Source: Gekko japonicus (taxonomy: Eukaryota). Taken from it: 64,000 nucleotides of DNA. The notes beneath the pieces were generated by a model. The model searched no databases and was not told where the DNA came from. It saw only the letters and a list, made by a program, of their open reading frames with translations. Where the stretch lies: assembly GCF_001447785.1 (NCBI RefSeq), contig NW_015168111.1, positions 100,354 through 164,353 of the forward strand, read 5' to 3'. Numbering within the stretch: position 1 is the first letter of the stretch; each line of letters begins with the position of its first letter. The position numbers were made by a program, and so were the translations under genes. Of this stretch, positions 1 through 53,035 are shown in pieces.

Positions 1-107
1 GGACTCCTATTGGTTACATTAGGATCCTAGCCCAGGCTGAAGCTTAACATTAGGTTTCAATTAGGCGATTCGCATGTCAGTATTTACATTCAAGTCAATA
101 CATAACA
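1..107 (-). mobile_element. Possible LTR end abutting or inserted in a hAT MITE
   Basis: Ends CATAACA (TGTTATG on minus) right before MITE sequence. Contains CCTATTGGTT, as does the LTR-like element at about 61290. Truncated by the window edge. Confidence 0.3.
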
Positions 108-5121: not shown

Positions 5122-6066
5122 CTATACAGTCTGCGAGAAGAGTTTCCAACCTAGAGTTCTCTTCAGGGATTCCCTCACTTCATAGTTCCTCAGAGCATAG
5201 ACAATGGGATTTAGCATAGGAGTGACAACTGTGTAGAACAAAGACAGTATTTTTTTGACTTCGGGTGAATAGTTGGATTTGGGTCTTAGATAGACGAGGC
5301 TCCCACTTCCATAGAACAAAATCACCACAATGAGATGAGATGAGCAAGTTGAGAAGGCCTTGCTTCTACCCTCTACTGTAGACATTCTGAGCATGGTGGT
5401 GATGATACGGGTATAGGAGATCAGGATGAGCACAAAAGGGAACATGAGGAAAACAAGGGTGGAGGCTATGGATTGCATTTCATATTGGTGGGTGTCTGTA
5501 CAGACCAGCTTCAACACTGGTGGGGCGTCACAAAAGAAATGATTGATTTTGTTATGACCACAAAAAGGAAGATTGAAGATCCAAGCTGCTTGCAGCAGTG
5601 AGACGGGGATTCCAATCACCCAGACTCCACCCATCAACTTGTAGCAGAAGGTCCTATTCATAACAGTGGCATAGCGCAGGGGGTTGCAGATGGCAACATA
5701 GCGATCATAGGACATAGCAGCTAAAAGAAAACACTCTGCACATCCAAAGTGGAAGAAGCAGTACATTTGAATGGCACAGCCGACGAAGGAGATAGTTTTG
5801 TCCTTCACCAGCAGGTTGATGAGCATTAGAGGGACTGTGTCCAAAGTGAAGCAGATCTCAATGAAAGCCAGGTTTCTCAGAAAGAAGTACATGGGAGACT
5901 GGAGGGCAGCATCCACCATGATGATGACAATAATGAGGATGTTCCCAGTCACTGTAGCAATGTACATTACCAAAACTAGAGGGAACAGAAACAACTCTAT
6001 GTTTGGCATGCTGGAAAATCCAACCAGGATAAATTCCTTCACCAAACTTTGGTTTCTCCACTTCAT
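5122..6066 (-). CDS. Olfactory receptor, family 10A (OR10A7-like), 314 aa
   Basis: Intact ORF with NQS glycosylation site, LQSPMYFFL, MSYDRYVAIC, HFFCD, KAFSTCSSH and PMLNPIVY. YEMQSIASTLVFLMFPF resembles OR10A7. Start placed at MKWRNQS because the upstream extension is a polypyrimidine tract ending in AG. Confidence 0.96.
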   Translation of the reverse strand: MKWRNQSLVKEFILVGFSSMPNIELFLFPLVLVMYIATVTGNILIIVIIMVDAALQSPMYFFLRNLAFIEICFTLDTVPLMLINLLVKDKTISFVGCAIQMYCFFHFGCAECFLLAAMSYDRYVAICNPLRYATVMNRTFCYKLMGGVWVIGIPVSLLQAAWIFNLPFCGHNKINHFFCDAPPVLKLVCTDTHQYEMQSIASTLVFLMFPFVLILISYTRIITTMLRMSTVEGRSKAFSTCSSHLIVVILFYGSGSLVYLRPKSNYSPEVKKILSLFYTVVTPMLNPIVYALRNYEVRESLKRTLGWKLFSQTV

Positions 6067-6464
6067 TTCTTCGAAAGGATTTCTGTTAGAAGATGTAGTA
6101 AGAAGAAGGAGATAGAAGAGGAAATCCATTCAGAAAGTCAATATTATGTAACTCTAATAGTGAGATAGAATCCCCCCTTTCCATTCCTTTATAGTTCCAT
6201 GTTTGCTGTGTTTCACATTCTACACCTTATTGTTGATGTAACTTCAACCACTGCTGTAATGTATTACTTACACTCAGGCCTCTCAGCAGTCCAGAGGGAC
6301 CCAGGCCAATTCCAGCTTTTAAGACACTTAAAAAAGTGTCAACATGTGATCTGCATTAAAAACATCAGTGAAATTTAATAAATCGGCAAGTATCTAATCT
6401 GAGGCCACCTTTGAGGCCCAATGCCCCCCCCCCCCGAATGACCATGGTTAGAGTATTATGGATA

Positions 6465-6674
6465 GGGGCTGTGGCTCAGTGGTACAGCATCTGCTTGGTA
6501 TACAGAAGGTTCCAGGTTCAATCATCGGCATCTCCAGTTAAAAGGACCAGGCAGTATGTGTTGTGAAAGACCTCTGCCTAAGACCCTGGAGAACTGCTGC
6601 CAGTCTGAGTAGACAATACTGACCTTGATGGACCAATGGTCTGATTCAGTATAAGGCATCATCATGTGTGTTCA
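6465..6674 (+). mobile_element. tRNA-derived SINE with CR1-type 3' tail
   Basis: A box TGGCTCAGTGG, B box GGTTCAATC, tail GATGGACCAATGGTCTGATTCAGTATAAGGCA...ATGTGTTCA. Homologous copies at 24031 and 57678. Confidence 0.8.
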
Positions 6675-10009: not shown

Positions 10010-10542
10010 GATGCGGTGATGTCATGCAGAAGTGACATCATCATCATAATTGGGGACGTTGCATGGCAATGCTCTGCATCTTGGACAAAGCCCTATTTTT
10101 TTGGCCTAAAACCATAGAGTGTTGCCCCAAAAGCAGAGCATTGCCATGCAACGTCCTGACATGATGAGGTCACTTCTGTGTGATGTCATCACATTGTGGA
10201 TGTCACTGTGCAATTTCCCTGTTTGGGGGTGAGGCTTCCCCCACCAACCAGTTGGCCAGTGGTGGGCAGAAGCCTGAAAAATCAGGGGAACCTCCACCTG
10301 GACCAGGGGTCTGGCAACCCTAACTACAACTGATCTCCGGACTACAGAGATCAGTCCTCCTGGGGGGAAATAGCTATTTGGAGGGTGGGCTCTAAGGCAT
10401 TATGCCCTGCTGAGGACCCTCCCCAAATTCCTCCCTTCTCAGGCTCTACCCTCAAATATCCAGAGTTGACAGCACAATACTGGTCTAATCTCAGAAGGCA
10501 GGAGCACTTGAAACAGGGCTAATACATTGGCCTTTGGCAACC
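10010..10542 (+). mobile_element. hAT-like repeat pieces (TAGGGTTGCCA family)
   Basis: Two TGGCAACC(C)TA termini (about 10312-10322 and 10534-10543) and the GATCAGT.C.CCTGG...GGAGGGTGG core shared with 48776-48988. Confidence 0.6.
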
Positions 10543-10805
10543 TAGGCCAGCCATAAACTGAGTGTGCCAGCCCACCCAGGCATATGTGAACTGTCTCAAT
10601 CTGGGCACACCCACCTTGCTGCAACCCCAGCTATCATGGACCTGGGCAAGCTGGTGCCTGCTGGTTCTTCATCCCCACTCCCTCCCTCATGGTGGGAGGT
10701 TTGCTCAGATGACCCTAGTGGTCAGATATGTTTAGGAGCATTTCTTTCTGCTTTATGTCGCTCCAGAATATGATACAAATAGACCTAATCTCTGCACTGA
10801 TTGAT

Positions 10806-10995
10806 GGTGGAAAGTGCCATGAAGTCACAGCTGACTTATGGCGACCCTGTAGCGTTTTCAAGGCAAGAGATGTTCATAGGCGGTTTGCCATGGCTTGCCT
10901 CCATGCCATGCCCCTGGTATTCCTTGGAGGTCTCCCATTCAAATACTAGCCAGGGTCATCCCTGCTTAATTTCCGAGATCTGATGAAACTGGACT
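10806..10995 (-). mobile_element. 5S rRNA-derived SINE with RTE-type tail
   Basis: Minus strand has 5S-like ATCAGATCTCGGAAATTAAGCAGGG...TAGTATTTGAATGGGAGACC and tail GGGTCGCCATAAGTCAGCTGTGACTT...GGCACTTTCCACC. Confidence 0.85.
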
Positions 10996-11601
10996 GATTA
11001 AGCCATAACTAATTATGGCAGGAATAGGGTGGGTTGCTCAGTATATGTAGGATGAATAGATGTGTATCAAGAAGCAACAGATGATATAGGGCTGTTACTG
11101 CAGCTTGCAATTCCTATTAGGATCCTATTGGGAATAATTAGTAGGACAGAGGTGTTGTGTGGTCACTGCTGATAAGGTGCTACTAAGTAGGTAGATAGCA
11201 TTTATTGTGTGGGGCCAAAAGCCATTGAAATAATCATGGGCTAATGGTGCTATCCTATGCATCCAATTTTTATTCTTTGCTATAACCTTGCTGATCAGCT
11301 CCCAAGTGGTGTCATTAAACATCAAGGGTGCTGCATTGTCAGTTTTCCCATAGGAGAAGTGAGGACACAATAGCTGCTTTAAAGACAGCTTGCAACAAGA
11401 ATCACCTAGGAGTCACAGCCAGTTTCTGAGCTAACACCCCCCCCCCATTAACCACAAAGAAAAAGGGGGGGACTCTGAAGCTCTTACATTTTCTATAATA
11501 GAAACATTCAGTAATTAGAGATTCCAATGCAAATACCTTTCCCCCAATGTGAACTGCAAAAAAGGGCTACTGTTTTTGTGCAGCTCATAAGAGAACGGTG
11601 A

Positions 11602-11746: not shown

Positions 11747-12447
11747 ACAGTCTGCCAATGACTTTTTTTATTTCCATGAGCTCTCTCAGCACATAAAAAT
11801 AAATTGTCTGGAATGTCTTCATTCTTCTGATTGTGCCGATAGTTGCTTGTGTAACCTTGCAGTTGTGCTACTATAACACAGTGTATATGGACCGCCTCTT
11901 AAATATAAATTGGAAACTCCAATAACACTGCAGTGATCCATTTGTTGTTGAAGGTGGCAAGTGTGGAGACATTACACTTGTGTTTAAAAAGATGTATCTA
12001 TTGCTAATTTGTTTATGAGGTCAATTCATGGTACTGATCCTTGTCTTCTCAACCGGTGAGTCATGTGTTTAAAAGCTTTAACTCTACTTTGAAGAACCTG
12101 TGCACCAGCTGTGCTCATCCATCTGACTACTATTTTTTATTTCCCTTTTCAAGTTGTCCACCCTTTCTGTCAAAGCCCATGTCTCTTCTGTTAAGGCAAC
12201 TTCACTGTGGAAAATTTCCTAGAGGAGGTAAGAACTCGTCTTGTGCATTTGCAAGAAAAGGGGTGAATCTGTTGTATTTTCTAGGGTTGTTAATGATTGT
12301 TATTGTGTATGTGGTTTTATTTTCTATCCTTTGCTTTTTATTGTTTGCTTTTATTTTTCATTGTTTTATAGATTCCGTAAAGTTTCTTCTTGTAAGCTTG
12401 TTAGGTAGGCTCTGAATGTTTAATGAATCATAAAGTTGGCTCTGGTC

Positions 12448-12657
12448 CAGTGTTCCTTCTAAGCTGAGTTAGTATGAACTAGCTCACAGTTTTTTAGCCT
12501 CTGGCTCACACATTTTTGTCTTAGCTCAGGAAGGATGGCTCCAGAGCAAACTAATCTATGTAGTAGCCAACTCACTCACTCGCTCGCAATTCTAATGCCA
12601 GTAGCTCAAAAAGTAGAATTTTTGCTCACAAGACTCCACAACTTAGAGGGAGCATTG
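12448..12657 (+). mobile_element. hAT MITE (CAGTGTTCCCTCTAAG family)
   Basis: TIRs CAGTGTTCCTTCTAAG / CTTAGAGGGAGCATTG. Perfect 8-bp TSD CTCTGGTC (12440-12447, 12658-12665). Confidence 0.9.
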
Positions 12658-13057
12658 CTCTGGTCATATCTGTTCCAGTAATAAAACTGGAGATGCATGT
12701 ATCTTGTCATAGGACCTGGGAAACATAGAGAGCTGGAGAAAAACCACTCAACAAAATCAAGAGATCTACTCAAATACGTCAAAAATCGCCAAGCAGCATG
12801 AGAGATATTGTTAGAGACCAGTCAAAGAGAATTCTTGAACATGGGCAATTATGATCTGTTTGTACTTGGCAAACTGTTGCTTTTGAAATTTGTGATGGGA
12901 GAACAGAGAAAACTTGTAAATGGAGAATAAAAATCAGAAACCTCAGGAGTTTCAGTGGCAGTGGTATCATGGATCCATATAAGGAGTAAGAAATAGGTGA
13001 GGTTCTATCAGAATCCTGTCCAGAACTATCATTTCCAGTAAAAATGGAAACATTTCC

Positions 13058-13284
13058 CTGACCTTGGCAGCCCAGGCAAGCCCAATCTCATCAGATCTTG
13101 GAAGCGATGCAGGACCAACCCTGGCAAGTACTTTGAAGGGAGACCTCCAAGGAATACCAGGGCTGGGGCGCAGAAGCAGACAGTAGTAAAGTAACTCTGA
13201 AACATCCATGCCTGCTAGGGGTCAGTAGAAATCAACCACATGCACATGCACAATACTCAACAAAGATATATTTTTTTTTAAAAA
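13058..13284 (+). mobile_element. 5S rRNA-derived SINE (diverged tail)
   Basis: 5S-like CCCAATCTCATCAGATCTTGGAAGC...GTACTTTGAAGGGAGACC. 12-bp direct repeat GGAAACATTTCC at 13046-13057 and 13285-13296. Confidence 0.8.
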
Positions 13285-13489
13285 GGAAACATTTCCAGAG
13301 TTAATGGGGACATTTTGCTTGTCAATGGCTTTTAGGTCCATTCTTGAAATTAACAGAGGCTGTCAGCTCAGGAAAGTAAAGATGTTTTCATTTGCCCCTT
13401 CCTTGCCTCACAAGCCTTGGGGCAGTGACTAGAGCAGCCTACAGACTACCTATGATTATGCTATTTTTTTAAAAAAACAATATTTTAAC

Positions 13490-13699
13490 CAGTGTTCCCT
13501 CTAAGCTTAGTGTGAGCTAGCTCATAGATTTTTTTTTTAAGCTTCTAGGACACACATTTTTGTCTTAGCTCAGGAAGGATGGCTCCAGAGCAAATTAATT
13601 AATGCAGTAGCCAAATCACTTGCTCGCAACTTCAATGCCAGTAGCTCACAAAGTAGATTTTTTTTGCTCACAAGACTCCACAGTTTAGAGGGAGCTCTG
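13490..13699 (+). mobile_element. hAT MITE (CAGTGTTCCCTCTAAG family)
   Basis: Full-length homology to 12448-12657, with degenerate TTTTAAC flanks. Confidence 0.85.
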
Positions 13700-16077: not shown

Positions 16078-16712
16078 TCAGTTAGTTTTAATCTGGTAAT
16101 TTTATAATAGATTTGGGATACAACAATCTGATTATATTCTTGTATTGTATTTTTGTGAACCACTTCAAGGATTTTGTTTATGAGGCAGTCAAAAGATGAC
16201 CATTTAAAATAACATTTTTTTACAAGTTTCAGTAGCAGATGCCAGTTGCCCTGTAGTAGAATGATAAACAATTGATGTGTTATCATTGTATCTTTGGAAG
16301 GATAACTATAAAACTATGAGGGTGATACCTATAGAGCAGGTAGTTTGAACATTTATTAATTTTAAGGTCACTAACAGTGATTTTTTTCTTTTTCAAATTT
16401 ATCCAGAATTCATTTGTTGTTGGAAAACAAGCTAATTCATTTTCCAGAGGTCTTTGCCTGATAACATGGGAAAAAGAATAAAAGGAATACTTCAAAGTAG
16501 CAAGCAGGAAAGAAAGATTTCTACATATTTTCCCTGAAACAATCAATACAGCTAAAGTAAAGAACTCCAAGAATTTTCTCTGCAGCAAACTCAGGAAAAA
16601 AATCTATAAGGAAAGAATTCTGTACCTGAACATAATCTGTAATTACTCACAGTATTGGTTTGTGTGTTATTTCCAAGACTGTATTTTAAATATTTGGTCC
16701 TAGTTATAAATC

Positions 16713-17645
16713 ATGACTGGATCTAATGAGACTGTAGTCAGTGAATTTATTCTTTTGGGCTTTTCTAATTTAGGACAACTCCAGATTCTCCTCTTTGGTG
16801 TATTTCTTGTTGTCTACCTGGCAACTCTGACAGGAAACACCCTCATCATCATTTTAACAAAAACAGACCCTGCTTTGCACAGCCCTATGTACTTCTTCCT
16901 CAGAAACCTGTCCTTTGCAGAAGTTGGCTTTGTGTCATCTACTGTCCCAAAGATGCTTGTGAACCTCCTCTCAGAGAAAAAGACCATCTCTTTGTTAGGA
17001 TGCCGAGCGCAGACATATTTTGTCTTCTTCTTTGGGACTATGGAGTGCTTCCTTTTAATTGCAATGGCGTATGACCGCTTTGTTGCCATATGCAAGCCTC
17101 TGAGGTATCCAGCTGTAATGAACAAGAAGATCTGTAGGCTGATGGCATTGGCGGCTTGCGCCTCAGGCTTTCCAGTTGGGACAGTACAGAGCTCATGGCT
17201 TTTTAGTTTTCCATTTTGCAGGACCAATGTAATCCCCCATTTCTTCTGTGATACTCCACCACTTCTTGAGTTGGTCTGTGGAGACACTTCTAAGTTTGAG
17301 CTATTTTCTCTCATTGGCACCTTTATCATAATATTGGCTCCCTTCACACTGATCCTTATCTCTTATATTCGTATTATAAGCACAATTTTAAGGATGCCTT
17401 CTACTGAAGGGAAGCAGAAAGCCTTCTCCACTTGTTCTTCACATATTATGGCAGTGACTCTGTTTTATGGCACATCCAGTTTGACTTACTTTCGGCCGAG
17501 GTCAAACTATACTCCAGAGATCAAACAACTGCTTTCTCTCTCATATACCATTCTCGTACCCATGTTAAACCCAATCATCTATAGTTTACGGAACAAGGAG
17601 ATGAAGGGTGCATTCACTAGACTGCTGAGGAGAAAAATGAGTTGA
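16713..17645 (+). CDS. Olfactory receptor, family 10A-like, 310 aa
   Basis: NET site, LHSPMYFFLRNL, MAYDRFVAIC, KAFSTCSSH, PMLNPIIYSLRN; intact. Confidence 0.97.
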   Translation: MTGSNETVVSEFILLGFSNLGQLQILLFGVFLVVYLATLTGNTLIIILTKTDPALHSPMYFFLRNLSFAEVGFVSSTVPKMLVNLLSEKKTISLLGCRAQTYFVFFFGTMECFLLIAMAYDRFVAICKPLRYPAVMNKKICRLMALAACASGFPVGTVQSSWLFSFPFCRTNVIPHFFCDTPPLLELVCGDTSKFELFSLIGTFIIILAPFTLILISYIRIISTILRMPSTEGKQKAFSTCSSHIMAVTLFYGTSSLTYFRPRSNYTPEIKQLLSLSYTILVPMLNPIIYSLRNKEMKGAFTRLLRRKMS

Positions 17646-17868: not shown

Positions 17869-18050
17869 GCAATGGCAGCTTTCATGTACATTTTCTCTCT
17901 CCACATGAACCTTCCTCTGTCGGTCTCTCGTTGAGTGGTGTTTCTTTGACTGTTATGTTTACCAGTTTGTGTATAGGTAGGGAATGCTGAGCTGAAAATT
18001 CGTAAAGAGGAAAGTGGTTGTGTTATGTTATGTTGTAAGGATAGCTGTGC

Positions 18051-18266
18051 CCTGAGCATGATGGCCTAGGCTATTCCAATCTTGTCAGAGCTTATAAACT
18101 GATCAGGGTCAGCCCTGGGTTAGTACTTGGATGGGAGACCTCCAAGGAATACTCCAGTCATGACATGGAGGCAGGCAATAGCAAACCACCTCTGAATGTA
18201 TCTTGCCTTAAAGACCCTGTTGGGTCCTCATGAGTCAGCAGTGACTTGTTGGCACTTTCCTCCACC
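18051..18266 (+). mobile_element. 5S rRNA-derived SINE, full length
   Basis: GGTTAGTACTTGGATGGGAGACC (exact 5S internal control region sequence), RTE-like tail, and perfect 14-bp TSD AAGGATAGCTGTGC (18037-18050, 18267-18280). Confidence 0.9.
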
Positions 18267-18464
18267 AAGGATAGCTGTGCATCATACTGTTAAAAGTGAT
18301 GTGAAAAATCAGGACTAAATTCATTATCACACATGGTTAGGGAAGGGATGGGCTTAACTACAAAGTTCAGGTTTTGTTATTTTTTCTGCTGCTCGTGGAT
18401 GTCTCATGAAGGGCCTGAAACCTCAGCTTGCTCTTTGATCAGCCCATTCTTGAAGAATACTATC

Positions 18465-18745
18465 AAGAAAAGGAAGAGATTGGATTATACCCTGCCCTTC
18501 ACTACTCGAAGGAGTCTCAGAGTGGCTTACAATTACTTTCCCTTCCCCTCCCCACAACAGACACCCTATGAGGTAGGTGGGGCTGAGAGGGTTCTCTTGA
18601 GAACTGCCCTTGAGTGAACAGCTTTGAAAGAACTTATAACTGACCCAAGGTCACAACAGCAGCTGCATGTGGAGGAGTGGGGAATCAAACCTGGTTCTCC
18701 CAGATTACAGTCCGCACTCCTAACCATTACACTGAACTGGCTCTC
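18465..18745 (-). mobile_element. Squam3-type (MIR/Ther1-derived) SINE
   Basis: Reverse-complement homolog of 33259-33546 with tRNA head and (TTC)-rich tail. Confidence 0.88.
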
Positions 18746-19258: not shown

Positions 19259-20074
19259 TGTAACGATTCCTTGTTTATGTGTGTGTGTCTCTTTAAAAGT
19301 TTGGTTGCATGTTAGATAGTCTAGAGTGCTTGAAGAGACAAGTGTGGTGTGATTGGTGATTGACAGAGAGGGGGAGGGGTTTTGGGAAGTGTTTCTGAGT
19401 GGATGAATATTTATGTCTGTCAGGAGTGACAGTTAGGAGGTTTGACAGTTGATAAAGACAGTTGTTAAGTTCTGATTTCTGTGAGAGAAGCAGAAGTTCA
19501 GTTAATTTGTGTGGATGAGAGGAGTGAGACACATCCCTGTGTGGGATAAGTTCATTCTGAGGTCTGAGGGAGAGAGACAGTCTTGTGTGCGATACAAGAG
19601 ATTAAGTTCTGTGTATGAAGAAAAGTTGAATGTATAAGGAAACAAAAGTTAAATGAAAGTCTGAGTGACAGACTGGAGAGAAATAGGAAACGTATATGAC
19701 CCTGAGTAATGAGTTAAAAAGTTACTTGAAAAATCCCTGTCAGAAAGGGAGCAGATCTTGTGCGAGACACAACAAAATTGTTACAATTATTCACATTACT
19801 GGTTACATTGTTCTACACTTTTATTTATGAACTGTTTCAATAAATCTACTCTTATTTAAGCATACCAGCTCTGAAAGACATACTTCCTCAGGCACCACAT
19901 TAGTACCTCGAAAGCCTAAAACCTCAACCTACCTACCCAGTGATAGCCAAAAGAAAGTATAAAGGTTTGGAAAGCCTAAAATTTCCTGGTGGCAGCCGGA
20001 TATACCCAGTAGAACAAAACATAAAGAACACTTTTAAAGGGAAACCAGACCTCCCCAGATAAGGGGTCATCACA
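19259..20074 (+). mobile_element. Putative solo LTR
   Basis: TGTAACGA...TCATCACA termini (TG...CA), AATAAA at about 19839, TGGTGGCAGC at about 19987. No clean TSD. Confidence 0.45.
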
Positions 20075-21249
20075 GAAGCGCTTTGGTCATTTCAAACAGT
20101 GTTACTTCCCCCCCCCTGCCCCTTTTGCCAACGTGTGATCTTCCTATAAGGGTTTTTTAAATGTTCTATAGTGAGCACTATCTCGCTGAACCAATCTCTC
20201 ACTTTACCACTTCAGCGACCCCATTGAGATGCTTGAACTCTCATCCTCCTTTGCGTTGCCTCTTTTCCTTGGAATACATGGGGAAAGTGTAAACATCCTT
20301 ACCTGCAGATTTACATGAGACTGCTTCAGTACATATACTTTTGAGTCAATCACGGGAGGCTCTCAAACAGCAACTCTGAAGCAGAAAACCCTTTTTCTGC
20401 TAACACAGTTAGAGAGACAGTCTTGTGTGCGATACAAGAGATTAAGTTCTGTGTATGAAGAAAAGTTGAATGTATAAGGAAACAAAAGTTAAATGAAAGT
20501 CTGAGTGACAGACTGGAGAGAAATAGGAAACGTATATGACCCTGAGTAATGAGTTAAAAAGTTACTTGAAAAATCCCTGTCAGAAAGGGAGCAGATCTTG
20601 TGCGAGACACAACAAAATTGTTACAATTATTCACATTACTGGTTACATTGTTCTACACTTTTATTTATGAACTGTTTCAATAAATCTACTCTTATTTAAG
20701 CATACCAGCTCTGAAAGACATACTTCCTCAGGCACCACATTAGTACCTCGAAAGCCTAAAACCTCAACCTACCTACCCAGTGATAGCCAAAAGAAAGTAT
20801 AAAGGTTTGGAAAGCCTAAAATTTCCTGGTGGCAGCCGGATATACCCAGTAGAACAAAACATAAAGAACACTTTAAAAGGGAAACCAGACCTCCCCAGAT
20901 AAGGGGTCATCACAGAAATGCTTTGGTCATTTCAAACAGTGTTACTCCCCCCCCTGCCCTTTTTGCCCAATGTGTGATATTCCTATAAGGGTTTTTTTAA
21001 TGTTCTATAGTGAGCACTATCTCGCTGAACCAATCTCTCACTTTACCACTTCAGCGACCCCATTGAGATGCTTGAACTCTCATCCTCCTTTGCGTTGCCT
21101 CTTTTCCTTGGAATACATGGGGAAAGTGTAAACATCCTTACCTGCAGATTTACATGAGACTGCTTCAGTACATATACTTTTGAGTCAATCACGGGAGGCT
21201 CTCAAACAGCAACTCTGAAGCAGAAAACCCTTTTTCTGCTAACACAGTT
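19571..21249. repeat. About 840-bp tandem duplication (19571-20410 / 20411-21249)
   Basis: Both units start AGAGAGACAGTCTTGTGTGCG and end AACACAGTT; identical except for one cluster of differences. Confidence 0.97.
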
Positions 21250-24030: not shown

Positions 24031-24242
24031 GGGGAGGGACTGTGGCTCACTGGAAGAGCCTCTGTTTGCTATGCAGAATGTCCCAGGTTCAATCCCTGGC
24101 ATCTCCAGTTGAAAGGATCAGGGAGTAAGTGATATGAAAGATCTTTACTGAGTCCCTGAGAAGCTGTTGTCAGTCTGAGTGAGCAATACTGACAGTGATG
24201 GGCCTATGGTATGACTCAGTATAAGGCAGCTTCATGTGTTCA
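24031..24242 (+). mobile_element. tRNA-derived SINE with CR1-type tail
   Basis: B box GGTTCAATCC and tail GACTCAGTATAAGGCAGCTTCATGTGTTCA; homologous to 6465-6674. Confidence 0.8.
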
Positions 24243-25780: not shown

Positions 25781-25850
25781 CCAGAAAGACAGCATGGACA
25801 TTTTCTAAATAAACATACAAACATTTTTTAAAAAAATTGGGACATAAACA

Positions 25851-26822
25851 ATGGTCTGGTCAAATCAGACTGGGATAAAAGAATTCAATCTTTTGGGGTT
25901 TTCCAACCTAGGCCAGCTCCAGACTCTCCTCTTTGTTGTGTTTTTTCTTATCTACATGGCGACTCTGATGGGAAACACCCTTATCATCTTGATAACAAGA
26001 ATAGACACTGCCTTGCACAGTCCTATGTACTTCTTTCTCCAAAATCTGGCTTTTGCAGAAGTTGGCTTCATAACACTAATTGTCCCCAAAATGCTTGTGA
26101 ACCTTCTTGTAGAGAAAAAGACCATTTCCTGGTCAGGATGCAGGTTACAGATTTTTGGTGTTGTCTACTTTGTTACCATGGAGTGTTTCCTATTCATTGC
26201 CATGGCTTATGACCGGTTTGTGGCCATATGCAATCCTCTAAGGTACACTGTCATAATGAATAGGAAGTTCTGTATGCTTCTGGTAATTGCAGTGTGGGCC
26301 TCAGGATTTCCTGTTGGGACACTACAGGTTACATGGCTGTTTAGTTTCCCATTCTGTGGGTCCCTTACAGTTCCCCATTTCTTTTGTGATGGTCCACCAA
26401 TTCTACACTTGGTCTGTGCAGACACTTCCAACTTTGAACTATATTCTCTCATAGGTACTCTTCTAATTATACTGTGTCCTTTCTTACTGCTTCTGGGCTC
26501 TTATACCCATATTATCAACACCATCTTCAGAATGCCTTCGGCTGAGGGGAGACGGAAAGCCTTCTCCACTTGCTCTTCACATATGATTGTAGTGACTCTG
26601 TTTTATGGCTCAACCAGTCTGACTCACTTCCGACCTAAATCAAGCTATTCCCCAGGAACCAGACAGTTGCTTTCTCTCTCCTACACTGTTTTCACACCCA
26701 TGCTGAACCCTCTTATCTATAGCTTGAGGAACAAGGAAATGAGGGCTGCCTTGAATCGGTTGCTGAGTCAGAAAAGGAAATGTATTGGGGTGTCCAAGAG
26801 CTTTCAAATCTCAAAACCTTAA
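25851..26822 (+). CDS. Olfactory receptor, family 10A-like, 323 aa
   Basis: NQT site, LHSPMYFFL, MAYDRFVAIC, KAFSTCSSH, PMLNPLIYSLRN; closest paralog is 16713-17645. Confidence 0.97.
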   Translation: MVWSNQTGIKEFNLLGFSNLGQLQTLLFVVFFLIYMATLMGNTLIILITRIDTALHSPMYFFLQNLAFAEVGFITLIVPKMLVNLLVEKKTISWSGCRLQIFGVVYFVTMECFLFIAMAYDRFVAICNPLRYTVIMNRKFCMLLVIAVWASGFPVGTLQVTWLFSFPFCGSLTVPHFFCDGPPILHLVCADTSNFELYSLIGTLLIILCPFLLLLGSYTHIINTIFRMPSAEGRRKAFSTCSSHMIVVTLFYGSTSLTHFRPKSSYSPGTRQLLSLSYTVFTPMLNPLIYSLRNKEMRAALNRLLSQKRKCIGVSKSFQISKP

Positions 26823-27154: not shown

Positions 27155-27396
27155 TACAGTTTTTCCATATTTCTAGTATCTGCCCATAACATTATGAAAA
27201 TATATCCATATACAAATTACTAGAATTACTGCATAATAATACAGAAGTTCCTCTGCCAATATCCAATTGTTACAGTACAGTTTTTCCATATGTCTAGTAT
27301 CTGCCCATAATATTATGAAAATATATCCATACACAAATTACTAGAATTACTTCATAATAATACAAAAGTTCCTCTGCCAATATCCAATTGTTACAG
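27155..27396. repeat. 121-bp tandem duplication
   Basis: 27155-27275 vs 27276-27396, about 5 substitutions; each unit begins and ends with TACAG. Confidence 0.95.
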
Positions 27397-28208: not shown

Positions 28209-28910
28209 CGGGGTGCGCACAAAAAAAATAAATCAGTGTTTTCTGGAGTTGGTATACAAAACCCGAAAAATATTGTTATACACTGATATACTGATAGGGA
28301 AATAATTGGTCTTGCTGAATTTATTCGGCTCCATACCTTCCCTTCCCTCCCCGAGTTGTGCTGCAGCAGTGGCATGCCTAAGTGACAGAAAGAAACACAT
28401 TTAAAGAGACTGCAATCTCTTTAAATACATTCCTGCCCCTTGCTGAGGTGTGCAGCCACTGCAGTGTGACTCAGGGTGATTCAGTGTGACTCCCTCCCCA
28501 AGTCATACTGCAGTGGTGAATCACCTTAGCAAAGAAATGGAAGGCTTTGAATGCCTTCCCTTCACTTGCTGATGCGTTCCCCCTCTTTCCCCCAGAAGTG
28601 GTGTGAGTTCACCTGGAACTTGCAGTGAGTGAACTTGTACCACCTCAGCTGATCTTTCCCTTTAAATGGCTTTTGCAAAGCCAAGCCACATGCAAGGAAC
28701 CCAGAAGTGGTGTGAGTTCACTTGGAACTTGCAGTGAGTGAACTTGCACCACCTCAGCTGAGCCCAAATAAAAGCTGGATAATATTGGGTTTTATTCAGG
28801 TTCAACTGGATTGGTAGCCAAATTAGATTAGAAAATCTAATTTGGCTGAATAAATACCCCAAAAAAACTGATAAGGTATTTTCAGGCATTTATTCACCTT
28901 ACTACACTTG
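28209..28910 (+). mobile_element. hAT-like non-autonomous element (GGGGTG(C/T)GCA-terminus family)
   Basis: Left end GGGGTGCGCAC; right part homologous to 62560-62717, which ends TGCACACCCCTA. Internal 62-bp hairpin unit repeated at 28591-28652 and 28700-28761. Confidence 0.45.
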
Positions 28911-29796
28911 CTTTTTATCTTCCAATAAAGATACCCCCCATCCCCCTGAACTTTGCAGCAGCCATTCCCCTGACCTTCCTTCCTACTGTCCCTATGTAGG
29001 TTGAACCCAGGACCCTTGGAGATGGAGATCTTGAGCTAGATTTGATATCTGCCCTACTTTTTCTTTTTTTGCTTTTCTCCAAGGGATCTAGGATTGCCAG
29101 TCTCCAAGTGGATTCTGGATATCACCCAGAATTAAAAACTGCTCTCCAGATGACAGAGATCAGTTCACTTGGACAAAATGGCTGCTTTGGATAGTAGACT
29201 CTCTGGCATTATACCCTGATAAAGTCACTTCCCACTCCAGACCTCACCTTCCCAAGGCTCCACCCCCAACTGAGCCCAAATAAAAGCTGGATAATATTGG
29301 GTTTTATTCAGGTTCAACTGGATTGGTAGCCAAATTAGATTAGAAAATCTGATTTGGCTGAATAAATACCCCAAAAAAACTGATAAGGTATTTTCAGGTA
29401 TTTATTCACCTTAGTACACTTGCTTTTTATCTTCCAATATGTTTACAGTATAAAGATAGCCCCCCCATCCCCCTGAACTTTGCAGCAGCCATTCCCCTGA
29501 CCTTCCTTCCTACTGTCCCTATGTAGGTTGAACCCAGGACCCTTGGAAATGGAGATCTTGAGCTAGCTTTGATCTCTGCCCTACTTTTTTCTTTTTTTGC
29601 TTTCCTCCAGGGGACCTAGGATTGCCAGCCTCCAAGTGGACTCTGGATATCACCCAGAATTAAAAACTGCTCTCCAAATGACAGAGATCAGTTCACTTAG
29701 ACAAAATGGCTGCTTTGGAGAGTAGACTCCCTGGCATTATACCCTGATTAAGTCACTTCCCTCTCCAGACTTCACCTTCCCAAGGCTCCACCCCCA
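28758..29796. repeat. About 512-bp tandem duplication (28758-29269 / 29270-29796)
   Basis: Both units start CTGAGCCCAAATAAAAGCTGG; scattered substitutions and a short insertion in copy 2. Confidence 0.95.
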
Positions 29797-30697: not shown

Positions 30698-31310
30698 AAG
30701 TAGCATTCTCTGATGAAGCACAGAGAATGCATTTACCTTCAGTGTTCACTGGCAGGACAGGGAAGCCTTTTTGGGCCCAGCAGCCATGGCCAAACAGCCA
30801 AGAAGCCTTGCTGGGCCCAGCAGCCATGCAGCTCAGGAACCCTGATCGGCCCAGCAGCAGCCTCACAGCCTGGGAGAGTTATGGGGCATGTGGCCAACCC
30901 TGTGAGTTGTGCTGGGCCTGGTAGCGGTGGCACAGCTTGGGGGTACGGCTGTGCCTGACAGTGATGGCTGCAAAGCCTAACAAAGCCCCTGAGTCGCACT
31001 GGGCTTGGCATTGAAGTGGAAGGGTGGGAGTACCCCTGAGAGTATTGTGGCCCCACATTTGAGCAGCTCCCAGACAACACCATGTGGGAGGGAGAGACAG
31101 CCTTGGAATACCCACCCGGAGCAGCTCTGGATGAGCCACCAAAAACCAGGATGGGGGAAGAAAGTCTCAGTGAGCCCACCTGGAGCCACTCTGGATAAGC
31201 CATTGAGAGTAGGAGGGGGGAAGGTGGTGGGAGCAGTGGCTGCAGGGAACCTCGGGACCATGCTAAGGCCAGTAAGAAAGTGAGGGGAGATGGGATTCCC
31301 CCCCCACAAG

Positions 31311-31525
31311 CAATGTCCCTCTAAACGTGGAGTCTTGTGAGCAAAAATTCTACTTTGTGAGCTACTGGCATTAGAGTTGGTGAGCAAGCCATTTGGCTAC
31401 TGCATACATTAGTTTGCTGTGGAGCCATCCTTCTTGATCTAGGACAAAAATGTGCAAGCCGGAGGCAAAAAACCCCACAAACCCTGTGAGCTAGCTCATG
31501 CCAGCTCAGCTTAGAGGGAACACTG
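31311..31525 (-). mobile_element. hAT MITE (CAGTGTTCCCTCTAAG family)
   Basis: TIRs; TSD CCCACAAG/CCAACAAG (7/8). Confidence 0.9.
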
Positions 31526-31542
31526 CCAACAAGTATTGTCAG

Positions 31543-31748
31543 CAATGTTCCCTCTAAGCTGTGGAGTCTTGTGAGCAAAACTTCTGCTTTGTGAGCTACT
31601 GGCATTAAAGTTGTGAGCAGGCAATTTGGCTACTGCATAAATTACTTTGCTCTGGAATAATCATTCCTGAGCTAAGACAAAAATGTGTGAGCCAGAGACG
31701 AAAAAACTGTGAGGCAGCTCACACTAACTCAGTTTAGAGGGAACACTG
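31543..31748 (-). mobile_element. hAT MITE (CAGTGTTCCCTCTAAG family)
   Basis: TIRs; perfect TSD ATTGTCAG (31535-31542, 31749-31756). Confidence 0.9.
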
Positions 31749-31903
31749 ATTGTCAGGGCTGTTTTTGGGCAGGAACGCACAGGACTGGATGAGCCATTGA
31801 GAGTGGGAGGGGGGAAGGTGGTGGGAGCAGTGGCTGCAGGGAACCTCGGGACCATGCCAAGGCCAGTAAGAAAGTGAGGGGAGATGGAATTCCCCCCCAC
31901 AAG

Positions 31904-32115
31904 CAATGTTCCTCTAAACGTGGAGTCTTGTGAGCAAAAATTCTACTTTGTGAGCTACTGGCATTAGAGTTGTGAGCGAGCAATTTGGCTACTGCGTACA
32001 TTAGTTTGCTGTGGAGCCATCCTTCTTGATCTAGGACAAAAATGTGCGAGCCGGAGGCAAAAAAACACACACCCTGTGAGCTAGCTCATGCCAGCTCAGC
32101 TTAGAGGGAACACTG
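31904..32115 (-). mobile_element. hAT MITE, duplicate of 31311-31525
   Basis: Same flanks as the 31311 copy; part of the duplication 31191-31539 / 31785-32129. Confidence 0.9.
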
Positions 32116-32248
32116 CCAACAAATATTGTGAACCTCCACTTGTGCATTACTACTTGCTTATTTCTCCCATCACCATTTTGAAGTATGCCACTGTAATTTC
32201 CATGAAGGCTTTGTTGTCCTGTTGTTGGGGTTTTTTGTTTTTGTTTTG

Positions 32249-32368
32249 CTGTCAAGTCACAGCTGACTTATGACAGCCCCGCAGGGTTTTCAAGGCTAGA
32301 GACATTAGTGGTTTGCCATTGCCTGCCTCTGTGCCATTACACTGGTATTCCTTGGTGGTCTCCCATCT
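32249..32368 (-). mobile_element. 5S-derived SINE, 3' part
   Basis: GTCAAGTCACAGCTGACTTATG...TTTTCAAGGC...GGTATTCCTTGGTGGTCTCCCATC. Confidence 0.8.
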
Positions 32369-34575: not shown

Positions 34576-34882
34576 TAAGGAGAATGTAAACTTGTGATTT
34601 GATGTGCAAGATGTCATAGTTCTTCAGTACTGACCCTGTTCATCATGAATCTTCTCAAGATGACCAGTTGGAAGTGACACTGCAGTACTCCAACCACAGT
34701 ACTCCTTAACCATACTAGAAGCTGTATGCTTAAGATATGGCTGGCATTTTTCTTGTTCCCTAAACCCTTCAGAATTATTGTGTTTCTAAGTGTGACTTTT
34801 CCCACTCTAACATTGCAGGAACACCAGAGCAAGAAAAAAAATTAACTATGTCCCTTCTTGACTTTTCAGCAATTACACAGGA

Positions 34883-35836: not shown

Positions 35837-35968
35837 AAGAGTATGAGGACCCTGTTTGTGTGGAAAGGTGGCACAGAAATGTTTTAAATAAAATGAAGTA
35901 ATACATAATGCCTGAGAGGATTATAGAGATTCATCAGTTTCTTAAGGAATTATGCTGCAGTATAGTTG

Positions 35969-36133
35969 CCCTGGATAGTCCATGGTAGTCCGATCTCATC
36001 AAATCTTGGAAGCTAAGCAGGGCTGACCCTGGCTATGCAGAGGCAGGCCATGGCCAACCACCTCTGAACGTCTCTTGCCTTGAAAACCCCACGGGGTCAC
36101 TAGTGTGACTTGATGGCACTTTCCACCACCACC
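35969..36133 (+). mobile_element. 5S-derived SINE (internal deletion)
   Basis: CCGATCTCATCAAATCTTGGAAGCTAAGCAGGG (5S A-box region); tail GACTTGATGGCACTTTCCACCACC. Confidence 0.85.
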
Positions 36134-36281
36134 CTTTCTTCAGCTGCTTGTTTTTAATACAGCTCATTGGAATTAAAGCTTTGACTTTCCTGTAACTCTC
36201 TCTGATTTGAAAATACCAGCTAAAAGTCAGGTATGAAGTTTGGCTTTTTTTAAACTGGTACTGCCTTGAAGAGTGAACAGG

Positions 36282-36487
36282 GAAAGTACCATCGAGTCAT
36301 AACCAGCTTAAGGCAACCTTGTAGGTTTTTCAAGGCAAGAGATGTTCAGAGGTGTTTACCGATGCCTGTTTCTGCACAGCAACTCTGGACTTTCTTGGTG
36401 GGCTCCCATCCAAGTACTAAACAGTGATGGATCTGTTTAGCTTACAAGATCTGATGAGATTAGACTAGCCTGGGCCACGCAGGTCAG
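36282..36487 (-). mobile_element. 5S-derived SINE
   Basis: CTCCCATCCAAGTACTAA is the reverse complement of 5S TTAGTACTTGGATGGGAG. Confidence 0.85.
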
Positions 36488-39177
36488 GTTTTGAAGAAAG
36501 TAGTGAATAGACGATATTTGAAAATCTTGAGATCCTTAAGCAACAGTTAGTTCTGAGGATCTAAGTTGGTATCCAGGGTAACTGAAGAAGCCCTTCTGTG
36601 ATCACAAGTCTCTTTTAATTTCAGGACATCTTTTGAATCAATAGCATTGTCAGATGGCATCCAACAAGTCATGTATTTATTTATTTATTTATAACTAGAT
36701 CTTTTTATTAGAAACAAACAAAAAGAGAGTGATGCATTCATTTTTTTTTAAAAAAAATCCTGTATGGTACAAAATGATTCCATCTGGCAATGAAAGTACA
36801 AAGAGGAAATATCCCCAACTTTTTTCAAATAATAGTAAATTCCTGCTACCTATTGTCTTCTGAAAGAAAACATACTGTACCATTAAAAATGAATGGGGAC
36901 ATCAGGAAACCTTCCTGTTTACAGGCAAAAGGAATCAGATAACATGGGCTCTTGGTTGGTTGGAGCCCAAAGAGCCATTATGCATATGGTGGGAGCTGGA
37001 TGCAACCCCTGTCTTCTCAATCCAAGCTTACTTAGAATGTGGGGAGATATTAAATCACACCATGCTTTTGATTTCAGGTGTAGTAGCACTCCACAGTTTT
37101 AACACAAACATATGGTGGGTCAGAAGGTTGTCAGTTCTCTTATGCTGGTACAGAGAATGAAAATGATTCAGCAATGGAAAGCAGCTCATCTCCACAAGGC
37201 CAAAATATTGTTAATGTTCAAAGGATTATTTCGTGCCAGGAGGCATTGTGGAATTATGTTCTGTTGTCCCACATGGATTGAATCAAAACATGGGTCTTAC
37301 CTGTTTTTATAAGAATGTAACACATTAGATGTAATGTCATGCTAATTTGTATTGATTTCATGCTGAATGGTTAATGGTAGCACATATCTCTTTAAATGTG
37401 GAATATGATGAAATGATTGCACACACCTGCAGGAAACCAATTCAGCATTTTAAATGTGATGGGTGATCAGATTGTCTCAGAGAACTGCACCTCTGGAACT
37501 GTCAATCTTGGAAGGCTTTTTCAGCCATTTATTGAGGGTGAGAATAAACAATGGGTAGGTATTTTAATTGGAATGGGATATAGTCAATTTTATATATTTT
37601 TTTTGATCATTGGTTGGTTTCCTGTTGGGGGACATTTCCACGTTGAGAATGTTTTTTGTATTTGTTAGTTCCAGTGTAAGAATGTAACACCATTCAAGAA
37701 GCTGTTGTATACTGTGAAGCTATTCTTACTTTGAAAAGAGGGACATTTGAAATGATCTTGTAAGTTGGCCTGCTTGTCAGCTGGAACAGCTGGAACTTGG
37801 GGAATCTTGTGCTGGAACTTTGGAAACTTTTGGGAGGCATTCTACCCAGTTGAACTTTATGAAGATTGTTTATGAGGATACCATCAACAGTCATTTCGGA
37901 CACATACCTTTATGAAAAAGTTCTGCTACTATATTTTGTGGCTTGTATTTGAAAGGTTGAATGTGCATCATGTTCTTTTTTGATGGCATTATAGACTTTA
38001 AAGTAATTGTTGTAAGTTCATGTATTGTTGATTAGATGATACAACACATACTGGAATATTGACAATTTATTTATTTATTATACATAGTTCATATTCACTA
38101 ATTATTGTCACAGGGGTTGTAGGGTTGTGGGCTTTTTTGTTTGTTTTTTGGGGGGGTTTGGTAGTGCTATAATCATGCTTCTGTCTTTTTATTGCTTATC
38201 TCCCAAATGTAAGCAGGCAGAATAAAAATGGAGGGTTTTTTCATGGAAAAAATCCACCAAAGAAAAGAAGCTATCAAACTGAATTAGTCAAACCAGATTA
38301 ACAAGTAATAGCCCTCTAAAGGTGGAAATACATGTCTCACAGATACAAGAACTCCCATGTCTCAAGATCCTTCAAGGAGGTGTTATTACCTAGCTATATA
38401 TTTCTATATCATTATTGTAAAACATAATGTTGATTATTGGGGCAGATGGGAGGAATGGCTCTGGTAAAGGATCCTGTTCCCTGCCCACTCTGACCCTGCA
38501 CCCCCAAGGGTGGGGGGAGCGCCTGCTCAGCCAGCTCAGAGCAAGAGGTGCCTGACCATGGCAGCTGGGCAAGGAGAGGCCAACAGCCCTCTCTTTCACT
38601 GCAGCAAGATAAGGCTGGGTGGAGCAACCCCATCCCATCCCTCACTGTGGCAAGCCTGGGTGTGATGGTTTCTCCCTGCAGCTAGGTCAGTTGACCCCAT
38701 CTCTTTCCACAGTGAGGTTGGGCAATACAGCCCCATTTCTCAGAGCACTGGGGTAACCCTTTCCTTCTTTTTACACTAGGGTGGTCCTGGACAAGGGTAG
38801 CCCTTGGGACCAAATGGCCCCAGTGTGTGTTAGGGGGCAGCCCACAAGCCTATTGGGACTCTTCCTGGTAGCCTTAATGGCAAACTCCTGCTGATTGTAG
38901 TGGTGATTTCTATTAGACATGGCAAATAAAATAGAATTGCAGTGCCTCCTGAAAATATCTAGAGAGTGTCCACCTCACCTCCTCATTTTATTGAATGTGC
39001 ACTAGGGCATCTTTGGCTATGTCCACCATACAAAGATGGACCTAAAAAAGGAAACATTCCATTCCAGAAATCTCTGACCAGAAACAGTGCCACAAAGCTG
39101 TTGCTGCTCTTGGAAGTGTACAGGCAACTAATCCTATGAAAATAAGGCTGTATGTGAGTGACCTGGGACCACTTAAG

Positions 39178-47426: not shown

Positions 47427-47566
47427 TGAGATTCCTAGTTTTATTTTCTGGCAAGTTCTATCTTTAAAGATTCAGTCTCCTCACTAATATATGATGGGAG
47501 CTTGGGGGGTATTTAAGCTGGATTTAACTGGGTCTTCCATTCTGTGTCTGCATGTGTGTGCATGTA

Positions 47567-47745
47567 AAAGGCCATCATGTCACAGCCAACTCACAGCAGC
47601 CCCACCCCAGGGCTTTCAAGGCAGGTGAGAAGCAGAGGTGGTATACCATTGACTTCCTCTATGGAGTCTTCTTTGGGGGTCTCACTTTCACATACCGGCC
47701 TTGCTTAACTTCTGATATCTGACAAGATCAGGCTACATCATGCTG
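47567..47745 (-). mobile_element. 5S-derived SINE (diverged)
   Basis: GTCACAGCCAACT...TTCAAGGCA...GAGGTGGT...TGCTTAACTTCTGATATCTGACAAGATCAGGCT. Confidence 0.7.
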
Positions 47746-47904
47746 CCTGCCCTCCCAGTTTTCCATACTACAGTGATACGTAATAAATGTACATAATAAA
47801 ATATTGAGTTATTACTACATTGTGCTGTATTTCATTTTTTTTAAAGTGTGTTACTAGACTCTTATAATTTCAACTGTTGAGGATAATAGCAATGCTAATA
47901 GCAT

Positions 47905-49170: not shown

Positions 49171-49380
49171 TTATTTTCCATCAAGTCACAGCAAACGCAC
49201 GTTGACCCCATGTAGTTTCCAGACAAGATACACTTAGAGGTGGTTTGCCATTTCCTGCCTCTGCACAACAACCCTGGACATCCTTGGTGGTCTCTCATCC
49301 AAGTACCAATCAGGGCTGTCCCAGCTTAACTTCCCAAAGCTGCTGAAATCAGGCTCACCTGGGCTATCCAGGTCAGGGCA
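49171..49380 (-). mobile_element. 5S-derived SINE
   Basis: GGTCTCTCATCCAAGTACCAA...GCTTAACTTCC; degenerate TSD AGCCTCATCTTT/AGCCTTATCATT. Confidence 0.8.
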
Positions 49381-52829: not shown

Positions 52830-53035
52830 CCTTATCTTGATGGCCCAGGCTACCCTGATCTCAGAGGCTAAGCAGGGTTGGTTCTGGTTAGTACTTTGGA
52901 CAGGAGACTTCCGAGGAAGTCCAGGTTTGCTATGCGGAGGCAGGCAATGGCAGACCTCCTCTGAATGCCTCTTGACTTGAATACCATACGATGTCATCAT
53001 GAGTCAGCTATGACTTTCTGGCACTTTACACACAC
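52830..53035 (+). mobile_element. 5S-derived SINE
   Basis: GATCTCAGAGGCTAAGCAGGG...CTGGTTAGTACTTTGGACAGGAGAC; tail GAGTCAGCTATGACTT...GGCACTTTACACAC. Confidence 0.85.

What the first reader, a model, noticed from the sequence alone, without database searches (positions are those of the whole stretch)
18037..18280. Abundant 5S rRNA-headed, RTE-tailed SINE (9 copies in 64 kb)
Seen: copies at 10806(-), 13058(+), 18051(+), 32249(-), 35969(+), 36282(-), 47567(-), 49171(-) and 52830(+), about 200-220 bp. The head matches 5S rRNA (CCCGATCTCGTC.GATCTCGGAAGCTAAGCAGGG...GGTTAGTACTTGGATGGGAGACC), keeping the A box, intermediate element and C box, but the 5S 5' and 3' ends are replaced. A short body (GAGGCAGGCAATGGCAAACCACCTCTGAA) follows. 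The tail GGGGTCGCCATAAGTCAG...GACTT resembles the BovB end in this window (GGGGTTGCGAAGAGTCAGACTCGACT). TSDs of 14 bp (this copy) and 12 bp (13058) indicate target-primed retroposition. Established: 5S-derived SINEs are rare; 5S-Sauria of Anolis and Ped-1 are known 5S/RTE chimeras. This one lacks the Sauria core seen in the Sauria SINEs here, so it may be a separate family. It is the best candidate for an undescribed system, and it would scatter TFIIIA/Pol III type-1 promoters through an OR cluster.
Basis: partly seen in the sequence, partly recalled or inferred. Interest (0 to 1): 0.7.

Follow-up and report, generated by a model that had tools for sequence, protein, structure and literature searches.

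The report
Lizard 5S-headed SINE with RTE partner
A 210-base jumping element, built from the front of a 5S ribosomal RNA gene plus two pieces of a LINE retrotransposon from the same lizard genome, has an estimated 100,000-270,000 copies and is likely copied by that LINE's enzyme; the design is already known from python and coelacanth, but one branch spread after losing the middle part of the usual 5S promoter.

Summary
Confirmed. All nine copies exist and both stated target-site duplications are present. Sampling 381 kb of G000 gives about 1-2.7 x 10^5 copies. The parts are a 25-nt non-5S leader, 5S +27..+110 (72 of 84 identical), about 60 nt of 'body', a 40-nt tail with a hairpin, and a microsatellite. 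I found the partner: a BovB-related RTE LINE, distinct from the window's BovB. Its 5'UTR supplies the 'body' and its 3' end the tail. This 5S-RTE5'-RTE3' design is published (SINE-1_Pmo, CoeSINE5, Ped-1), so it is no new system. I found no description of this family in nine paper searches, but Repbase, Dfam and SINEBase could not be searched. Two further branches turned up. Subfamily B (window copy 47553) lacks 5S +65..74, the whole intermediate element, yet retrotransposed (2,093 versus 8,913 exact diagnostic 22-mers; duplications in 9 of 27). Subfamily C has swapped the RTE tail for another. Enrichment in the olfactory-receptor cluster is weak (P about 0.04-0.08) and no window copy has an intact promoter. 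Transcription was not tested.

The parts
18037..18048 (+). left target-site duplication (12 bp; the match runs on 2 bases into the element)
18049..18073 (+). 25-nt leader of subfamily A, not 5S-derived; puts the 5' end 48 nt before the A box (49 in 5S)
18074..18158 (+). 5S rRNA-derived head (5S +27..+110): A box 18097-18107 (3 of 11 mismatched in this copy), IE 18114-18119 (1 mismatch, 1-nt insertion), C box 18128-18138 (intact)
18164..18221 (+). 'body' = piece of the partner RTE LINE's 5'UTR that ends about 25 nt before the LINE's ORF start
18220..18258 (+). 3' end of the partner RTE LINE, with a 6-bp-stem/4-nt-loop hairpin at 18232-18247
18259..18266 (+). (CCA)n microsatellite tail
18267..18278 (+). 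right target-site duplication
10805..11008 (-). subfamily A copy, leader degraded
13054..13284 (+). subfamily A copy with diverged 3' part; duplication at 13046-13057 and 13285-13296
32248..32367 (-). 5'-truncated copy starting at the C box
35967..36128 (+). subfamily A copy with internal deletion of the C box region
36280..36489 (-). subfamily A copy
47553..47758 (-). subfamily B copy: purine-rich leader, 10-nt deletion of the intermediate element, (CA)n tail
49173..49380 (-). subfamily A copy
52830..53032 (+). subfamily A copy

Best explanation
This is a 5S rRNA-headed SINE (SINE3) made of a 5S promoter region joined to the 5'UTR piece and the 3' end of a BovB-related RTE LINE of the same genome, and it was likely transcribed by RNA polymerase III and likely copied by that LINE's reverse transcriptase. 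Shown: the modular make-up, the two LINE-derived segments, high interspersed copy number, target-site duplications, three subfamilies. Inferred steps: (1) TFIIIA/TFIIIC bind the internal boxes of a few master copies and Pol III starts about 46-48 nt before the A box; (2) the LINE protein binds the 3' hairpin, nicks DNA at T|A sites and primes reverse transcription on the microsatellite tail (target-primed retroposition); (3) the family arose when a 5S sequence fused to an internally deleted ('bipartite') RTE. Subfamily B went on retrotransposing after losing 5S +65..74; subfamily C replaced the RTE tail by a different one. The window's copies are old (75-84% identical to the consensus) and most likely inert passengers.
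For: Linked modules: 30 of 30 loci picked by a 21-nt body word lie in such elements or their truncations, read by eye; 10,764 exact matches, 0 for the reversed control. Density: 28 insertions (30 hits) in 380,631 non-N bases of 40 arbitrary regions, 0 in the reversed control; bootstrap 94,000-270,000. Duplications of 8-15 bp in 23 of 90 full-length copies versus 0.77 in shuffled pairings (max 4 of 300); T|A at the duplication start in 8 of 23 (p=7e-4), as reported for RTE-driven SINEs (PMC6007223 passages). Partner: 568 exact hits of a LINE-end pattern; 20 of 20 examined end in the same ~40-nt tail plus a CA-rich run; stepping upstream gave 3 near-complete copies whose 5'UTR matches SINE profile positions 107-179 (E 3e-7 to 3e-10), just before the ORF start; RVT_1 E 3e-15; about 60% identity to bovid, lizard and rotifer RTE proteins, while the window's BovB is 72-84% identical to a BovB-type protein that the partner matches at only 35-57%. 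SINE and LINE tails differ mainly in the hairpin loop; in SINE copies the outer stem pair is G-C or A-U in 28 of 35 (Fisher p=0.004; LINE p=0.63; copies are related, so this is suggestive only). 5' ends lie 48 (A) and 46 (B) nt before the A box, against 49 in 5S and about 50 expected for type 1 promoters (PMC12409998 passage).
Against: No transcript, start site or TFIIIA binding was shown. 67 of 90 full-length copies show no exact duplication of 8 bp or more (expected with age, but not proof). All partner LINE copies seen are broken by stops and frameshifts, so mobilisation is inferred from shared ends. T enrichment near -10 is weak (p=0.03). Subfamily B lacks the IE, and 14 of 30 B copies carry a T>A change in the C box (counted by eye); most C copies also have altered C boxes. 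Dependence on TFIIIA is therefore less sure for B and C than for A.
Confidence: 0.9

Rival explanations
1. The copies are processed 5S rRNA pseudogenes or chance 5S-LINE template-switch chimeras, each made independently.
For: G000 does hold dispersed full-length 5S retrocopies, some with flanking repeats. The head is 86% identical to 5S.
Against: Copies share a non-5S leader, diagnostic substitutions, one fixed 5S/LINE junction and one fixed 5'UTR/3'-end junction, and fall into subfamilies with shared indels. SINEBase separates SINEs from pseudogenes on exactly these grounds.
Confidence: 0.01
2. It is a SINE, but BovB (the window's other RTE) mobilised it.
For: BovB has the same type of terminal hairpin and a similar end word; related RTE enzymes might cross-mobilise (inference).
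Against: Tail alignment scores 57 (A) and 80 (B) against the other RTE versus 24 against the one BovB end tested. The body also comes from the other RTE, and B shares its (CA)n tail.
Confidence: 0.05
3. The masters of B (and C) no longer used a TFIIIA-dependent internal promoter; they were driven by flanking or read-through promoters at one or two source loci, and the 5S boxes were decaying remnants.
For: B has lost the whole IE; C-box changes are fixed in about half of B and in most C copies. [quoted passage not shown] No B-box word is in either consensus (by eye).
Against: B's 5' end is fixed 46 nt before the A box. A box and C box stay recognisable while leader and IE changed. The deletion is exactly 10 nt, about one helical turn, which keeps A and C boxes in phase (inference).
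Confidence: 0.3
4. The family is the local branch of an already catalogued squamate SINE3 (SINE-1_Pmo or an entry in Repbase/Dfam), so nothing about the family is new.
For: SINE-1_Pmo has the same modules; by eye it shares a 19-nt word in the RTE 5' part with subfamily B, a similar leader and a few non-5S substitutions. The RTE half also resembles Anolis SINE2-2_ACar. A gecko genome paper lists a '5s-Deu-L2' SINE class, which may be these copies under another label (inference).
Against: SINE-1_Pmo (241 nt) has about 28 extra nt between 5S and RTE parts and a different tail, by eye. Nine paper searches and two squamate SINE surveys name no gecko 5S SINE.
Confidence: 0.4

Closest known systems
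SINE-1_Pmo (python; Kojima 2018, PMC5786205, text parts 1-3 of 5 and supplement passages read)
   Same: Squamate SINE3 with 5S head, replaced 5' end, RTE 5'UTR piece and RTE 3' end; same conserved RTE 5' word (compared by eye).
   Different: 241 nt with an extra ~28-nt spacer; different tail sequence and T-rich end; keeps the IE. Here 205-217 nt, (CCA)n or (CA)n ends, and the partner LINE is identified in the same genome.
CoeSINE5 (coelacanth), HaSE3 (moth), Ped-1 (springhare)
   Same: 5S head plus RTE-derived segments; CoeSINE5 is labelled 5S-RTE5'-RTE3'; Ped-1 is listed as 5S-headed, bipartite, BovB-partnered.
   Different: Other lineages and other RTE donors; the CoeSINE5 RTE part is unrelated by eye. 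Ped-1 and HaSE3 sequences were not seen.
SINE2-2_ACar (Anolis; tRNA-CORE-RTE5'-RTE3')
   Same: Its 3' half closely resembles the body and tail here, by eye, so both likely drew on related RTE donors.
   Different: tRNA/CORE head instead of 5S; longer spacer between the RTE pieces; (CAA)n end.
5S-Sauria (Anolis; Piskurek 2009, seen only as table entries)
   Same: Lizard SINE with a 5S promoter head.
   Different: 348 nt against about 210 here; the element here shares nothing with the Sauria-type copies of the window. Its sequence was not seen.
SINE-derived satellites of squamates (PMC10702118, passages read)
   Same: Tandem arrays of SINE fragments with 104-127-nt units occur here too.
   Different: Published ones come from tRNA SINEs Squam1-3; 'rRNA' does not occur in that paper's main text.

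Membership tests
SINE (SINEBase definition) | short (<1 kb), interspersed, at least 100 copies | tested here: met
   205-217 nt; 10,764 exact 21-mers; density estimate 94,000-270,000
SINE (SINEBase definition) | at least 60% identity to tRNA, 5S or 7SL over at least 60 nt | tested here: met
   72 of 84 identical to G000's own 5S gene L025
SINE (SINEBase definition) | distinct from RNA pseudogenes: own body and shared diagnostic changes | tested here: met
   shared leader, body, tail and junctions
SINE | target-site duplications from retroposition | tested here: met
   23 of 90 versus 0.77 shuffled; subfamily C 7 of 17 versus 0.16
SINE3 | type 1 promoter: A box, IE, C box at 5S spacing (subfamily A consensus) | tested here: met
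   A box to C box distance 35 nt as in 5S
SINE3 | type 1 promoter complete in subfamily B | tested here: not met
   5S +65..74 deleted, distance 25 nt
SINE3 | transcription by Pol III with TFIIIA | not testable with these tools
   no reads were laid; needs bench or small-RNA data
bipartite RTE SINEs (Kojima 2018) | middle from an RTE 5'UTR | tested here: met
   matches the 5'UTR of 3 of 4 long LINE copies fetched (the fourth, L205, showed no 5'UTR match), just before the ORF start
bipartite RTE SINEs (Kojima 2018) | 3' end from the same RTE (subfamilies A, B) | tested here: met
   subfamily C lacks it (0 of 30)
SINE-1_Pmo family | full-length colinear sequence match | tested here: inconclusive
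   by-eye comparison with the printed consensus only: same modules, different spacer and tail; no alignment was computed
5S-Sauria | 348-nt length with Sauria body | tested here: not met
   length 205-217; no match to the Sauria-type window copies (their naming as Sauria is recalled)
Ped-1 | sequence match and BovB partner | not tested
   sequence not available; the partner here is not the window's BovB
Repbase/Dfam/SINEBase entries | full-length match to a catalogued consensus | not testable with these tools

The most novel reading that the evidence does not exclude
An uncatalogued gecko-type SINE3 family of over 100,000 copies is a natural mutagenesis of the 5S promoter: subfamily B reached tens of thousands of copies from a Pol III type 1 promoter shortened by one helical turn and lacking the intermediate element, which would show that TFIIIA finger-5 contacts are dispensable in vivo when A and C boxes stay in phase. 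Subfamily C jumped to a second LINE and spread a CTCF-like word.
Probability: 0.35. Interest if true: 0.6.

Novelty: new member of a known kind. Interest (0 to 1): 0.35.

Why it matters
5S-derived SINEs are few, and one with roughly 10^5 copies (about 1% of the genome by estimate) would be among the larger ones and a missing item in lizard repeat libraries and phylogenetic marker sets. Finding both donor segments in one resident LINE gives a direct case of the bipartite-LINE model of SINE birth. Subfamily B offers a ready test of which parts of the type 1 promoter are needed, and subfamily C a clean case of tail exchange. For the olfactory-receptor cluster itself the copies are probably inconsequential.

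Tried and rejected
1) One search was meant to catch LINE ends by excluding the SINE's upstream bases; it returned mostly subfamily B and satellites. 2) Searches used wrong coordinates or strand and are uninformative, so the youngest copies were not searched for; the best identity to consensus seen was 93%. 3) Expression: one search lists 2 RNA and 4 RNA-guessed contig sets with shares 0.29-0.41 of 17 words and 3 unindexed raw RNA runs; none was laid, so they are no evidence. 4) Leader derived from the 5S 5' end: rejected (p=0.38 for A, 0.25 for B). 5) Window copies duplicated along with OR genes: rejected, their upstream flanks are unrelated. 6) OR-cluster enrichment: not significant once clustering is allowed (P=0.078 bootstrap, 0.04-0.07 Poisson). 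7) Pfam found nothing for 4 of 5 LINE fragments. 8) The source LINE of the subfamily C tail was not found: none of 30 hits extends upstream beyond the SINE. 9) Earlier-findings look-ups by sequence and by words were empty. 10) Paper searches found no description of a gecko 5S SINE or of an IE-less SINE3; one search was swamped by irrelevant papers. The originals on 5S-Sauria and Ped-1 were not in the library, and the SINEBase supplement could not be read.

Full report
Observation. BLAST of 18037-18280 against the window recovers the eight other copies, and a profile built from 48 copies finds exactly nine. The 14-bp and 12-bp direct repeats are at 18037/18267 and 13046/13285. Rfam scores two copies above the 5S gathering threshold. 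The window holds seven olfactory-receptor-type ORFs (recognised by recalled motifs) and several other repeat families. The host is a squamate, likely a gecko; this is inferred from recalled repeat types and is not shown by a call.

Anatomy. G000's own 5S genes (L025, L026 with a T-run terminator) allowed a direct comparison. Subfamily A has a 25-nt leader no closer to the 5S 5' end than shuffles (p=0.38), then 5S +27..+110 at 72 of 84 identity with A box, IE and C box at native spacing. About 60 nt of body, a 40-nt tail and (CCA)n or (CA)n follow. The consensus has no internal run of four T, as a Pol III transcript requires (established knowledge).

Copy number and retroposition. Forty 10-kb regions chosen without regard to hits (380,631 non-N bases) hold 30 profile hits, 28 insertions after I merged two split ones; the reversed control holds none. 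A bootstrap over regions gives 94,000-270,000 copies. Consistent with this, one 21-nt body word occurs 10,764 times and in 2 of the sampled copies, and the Rfam first look listed about 238,000 rough candidates. Exact duplications of 8-15 bp flank 23 of 90 full-length copies against 0.77 in shuffled pairings (duplicate loci and satellite repeats were dropped first). T|A begins the duplication in 8 of 23 (p=7e-4), resembling the RTE signature in PMC6007223 (passages); the upstream T excess is weak (p=0.03). Unselected A copies are 79% identical to the consensus (n=14; the consensus leans to a younger branch), so most copies are old. Fourteen DNA data sets from 10 coded organisms in 6 studies hold 71-82% of 17 sampled words. 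That exceeds what the 5S part alone could give (inference) and suggests a family shared among relatives, but one set may be the source and none was laid.

Partner LINE. A pattern for an RTE ORF end followed by the tail word gave 568 exact hits. All 20 examined end in the same tail and a CA-rich run, with an RT C-terminus upstream. Two upstream steps led to near-complete copies; in L203, L204 and L206 (3 of 4 fetched) the 5'UTR matches the SINE body, and the alignment runs up to the point where the SINE switches to the tail. tblastn puts the ORF start about 25 nt downstream of that segment. The RT (Pfam RVT_1) is about 60% identical to bovid, lizard and rotifer proteins. The window's BovB fragment (39184-39629) is 72-84% identical to BovB-type P0029, while the partner reaches 35-57%, so they are different families. 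The SINE tail scores 57-80 against the partner's end and 24 against the BovB end. SINE and LINE share a 6-bp stem and differ in its 4-nt loop; among SINE copies the outer pair is G-C or A-U in 28 of 35 (p=0.004), with no such link in the LINE. Both changes are CpG-type and copies are related, so this is only suggestive.

Subfamilies. B has a purine-rich leader, lacks 5S +65..74 including the whole IE, and ends in (CA)n. Diagnostic 22-mers number 2,093 (B, including satellite units) against 8,913 (A), and 4 of 30 sampled hits are B, which suggests 2-4 x 10^4 copies. Duplications flank 9 of 27 full-length B copies, so B moved as a unit after the deletion. Its 5' end is 46 nt before the A box (A 48, 5S 49); type 1 starts are set about 50 bp before the A box, and TFIIIA finger 5 reads the IE (PMC12409998 passages). 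In 14 of 30 B loci the C box also carries a T>A change (by eye). C keeps the A-type head and the RTE 5'UTR piece but ends in an unrelated ~105-nt segment plus (ATT)n: 27 of 30 hits to that segment have the SINE 5' part directly upstream, none keeps the RTE tail word, and 7 of 17 full-length copies have duplications against 0.16 shuffled. C is absent from the window.

Mechanism. Shown: composition, donors, interspersion, duplications, subfamilies. Inferred: Pol III transcription from the internal 5S promoter of a few masters, recognition of the 3' hairpin by the partner's protein, and target-primed reverse transcription; origin by fusion of 5S to an internally deleted RTE. For B and C a flanking-promoter rival stays open (0.3). 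None of the nine window copies has three perfect boxes, and their density exceeds the genome mean by at most twofold (P about 0.04-0.08), so a role in OR regulation is unsupported.

Comparison with what is known. Kojima 2018 (PMC5786205; parts 1-3 of 5 and supplement passages) lists SINE-1_Pmo and CoeSINE5 as 5S-RTE5'-RTE3', names Ped-1 as bipartite, and describes tail exchange. The element works like these; by eye it is not the same family as SINE-1_Pmo, and by length and body not 5S-Sauria. Divergence upstream of the promoter is also reported for other SINE3 (PMC10886601 passages). Squamate SINE surveys (PMC7983390 parts 1-2 of 4; PMC10702118 passages and supplement search; PMC13295347 passages) did not mention it in what I read. 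PMC10946416, PMC3531059, PMC3747384 and PMC10776941 were seen as passages only. Repeat databases could not be searched, so the family may already be catalogued (0.4).

Verdict. A real, very abundant SINE3 of a known architecture: new member of a known kind, interest 0.35. The IE-less subfamily is the part worth a bench test.

Noticed in passing
L238-L266 (G000); also L091, L109, L127, L229: Subfamily C: same 5S head and RTE 5'UTR piece, but a different ~105-nt 3' end plus (ATT)n; tail donor not found. The tail carries CCACCTAGTGG in 25 of 30 loci, which resembles the CTCF core motif (recalled, not scored).
   Followed up: partly
L203 (LINE 5'UTR), also L204 and L206: A 13-nt word identical to 5S +67..79 lies in the partner LINE's 5'UTR right before the segment taken into the SINE (1-2 mismatches in the other two copies); 1 of 200 shuffled 5S sequences reaches 13 nt against the whole L203 copy. 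Post hoc; might have helped the original fusion.
   Followed up: partly
L047:1153-1877, L059:1323-1768: Tandem arrays made from subfamily B fragments (125 nt x 5.8, 104 nt x 4.3; 95-96% matches); more with 99-145-nt spacing. L047 also holds a 126-nt array of another SINE next to it.
   Followed up: partly
L021-L032: Of 12 full-length 5S matches read, only L025 and L026 end in a T-run and share flanks; the other 10 look like dispersed retrocopies, some with flanking repeats.
   Followed up: no
window 5122-6129(-), 16710-17645(+), 25848-26822(+), 34862-35836(+), 45003-46034(+), 50209-51198(-), 58640-59797(+): Seven intact olfactory-receptor-type ORFs. SINE copies at 18049 and 35967 lie about 400 and 130 bp behind two of them, perhaps in 3'UTRs.
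   Followed up: no
window 39184-39645(+): 5'-truncated BovB fragment with an internal deletion.
   Followed up: yes
window 34249-34574, 42234-42567, 47901-48050, 61715-62048; 18465-18745, 33260-33547, 55181-55472, 62858-62966; 6464-6669, 24035-24239: Three other SINE-like families (about 330, 285 and 205 bp), by recall Sauria-, Squam3- and Squam2-type; the last has Rfam tRNA hits.
   Followed up: no
window 12447-12659, 13477-13695, 31309-31525, 31541-31751, 31902-32129: A ~210-bp repeat, five copies, with short inverted ends, probably a non-autonomous DNA transposon.
   Followed up: no
window 19571-21249, 28752-29796, 27155-27396: Near-identical tandem duplications (840 bp at 98.8%, 517 bp at 93%, 121 bp at 96%); the first may be an assembly artefact.
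   Followed up: no
window 63197-63355, 10025-10182: Long palindromes giving sub-threshold miRNA-family hits in Rfam, likely MITE-type hairpins.
   Followed up: no
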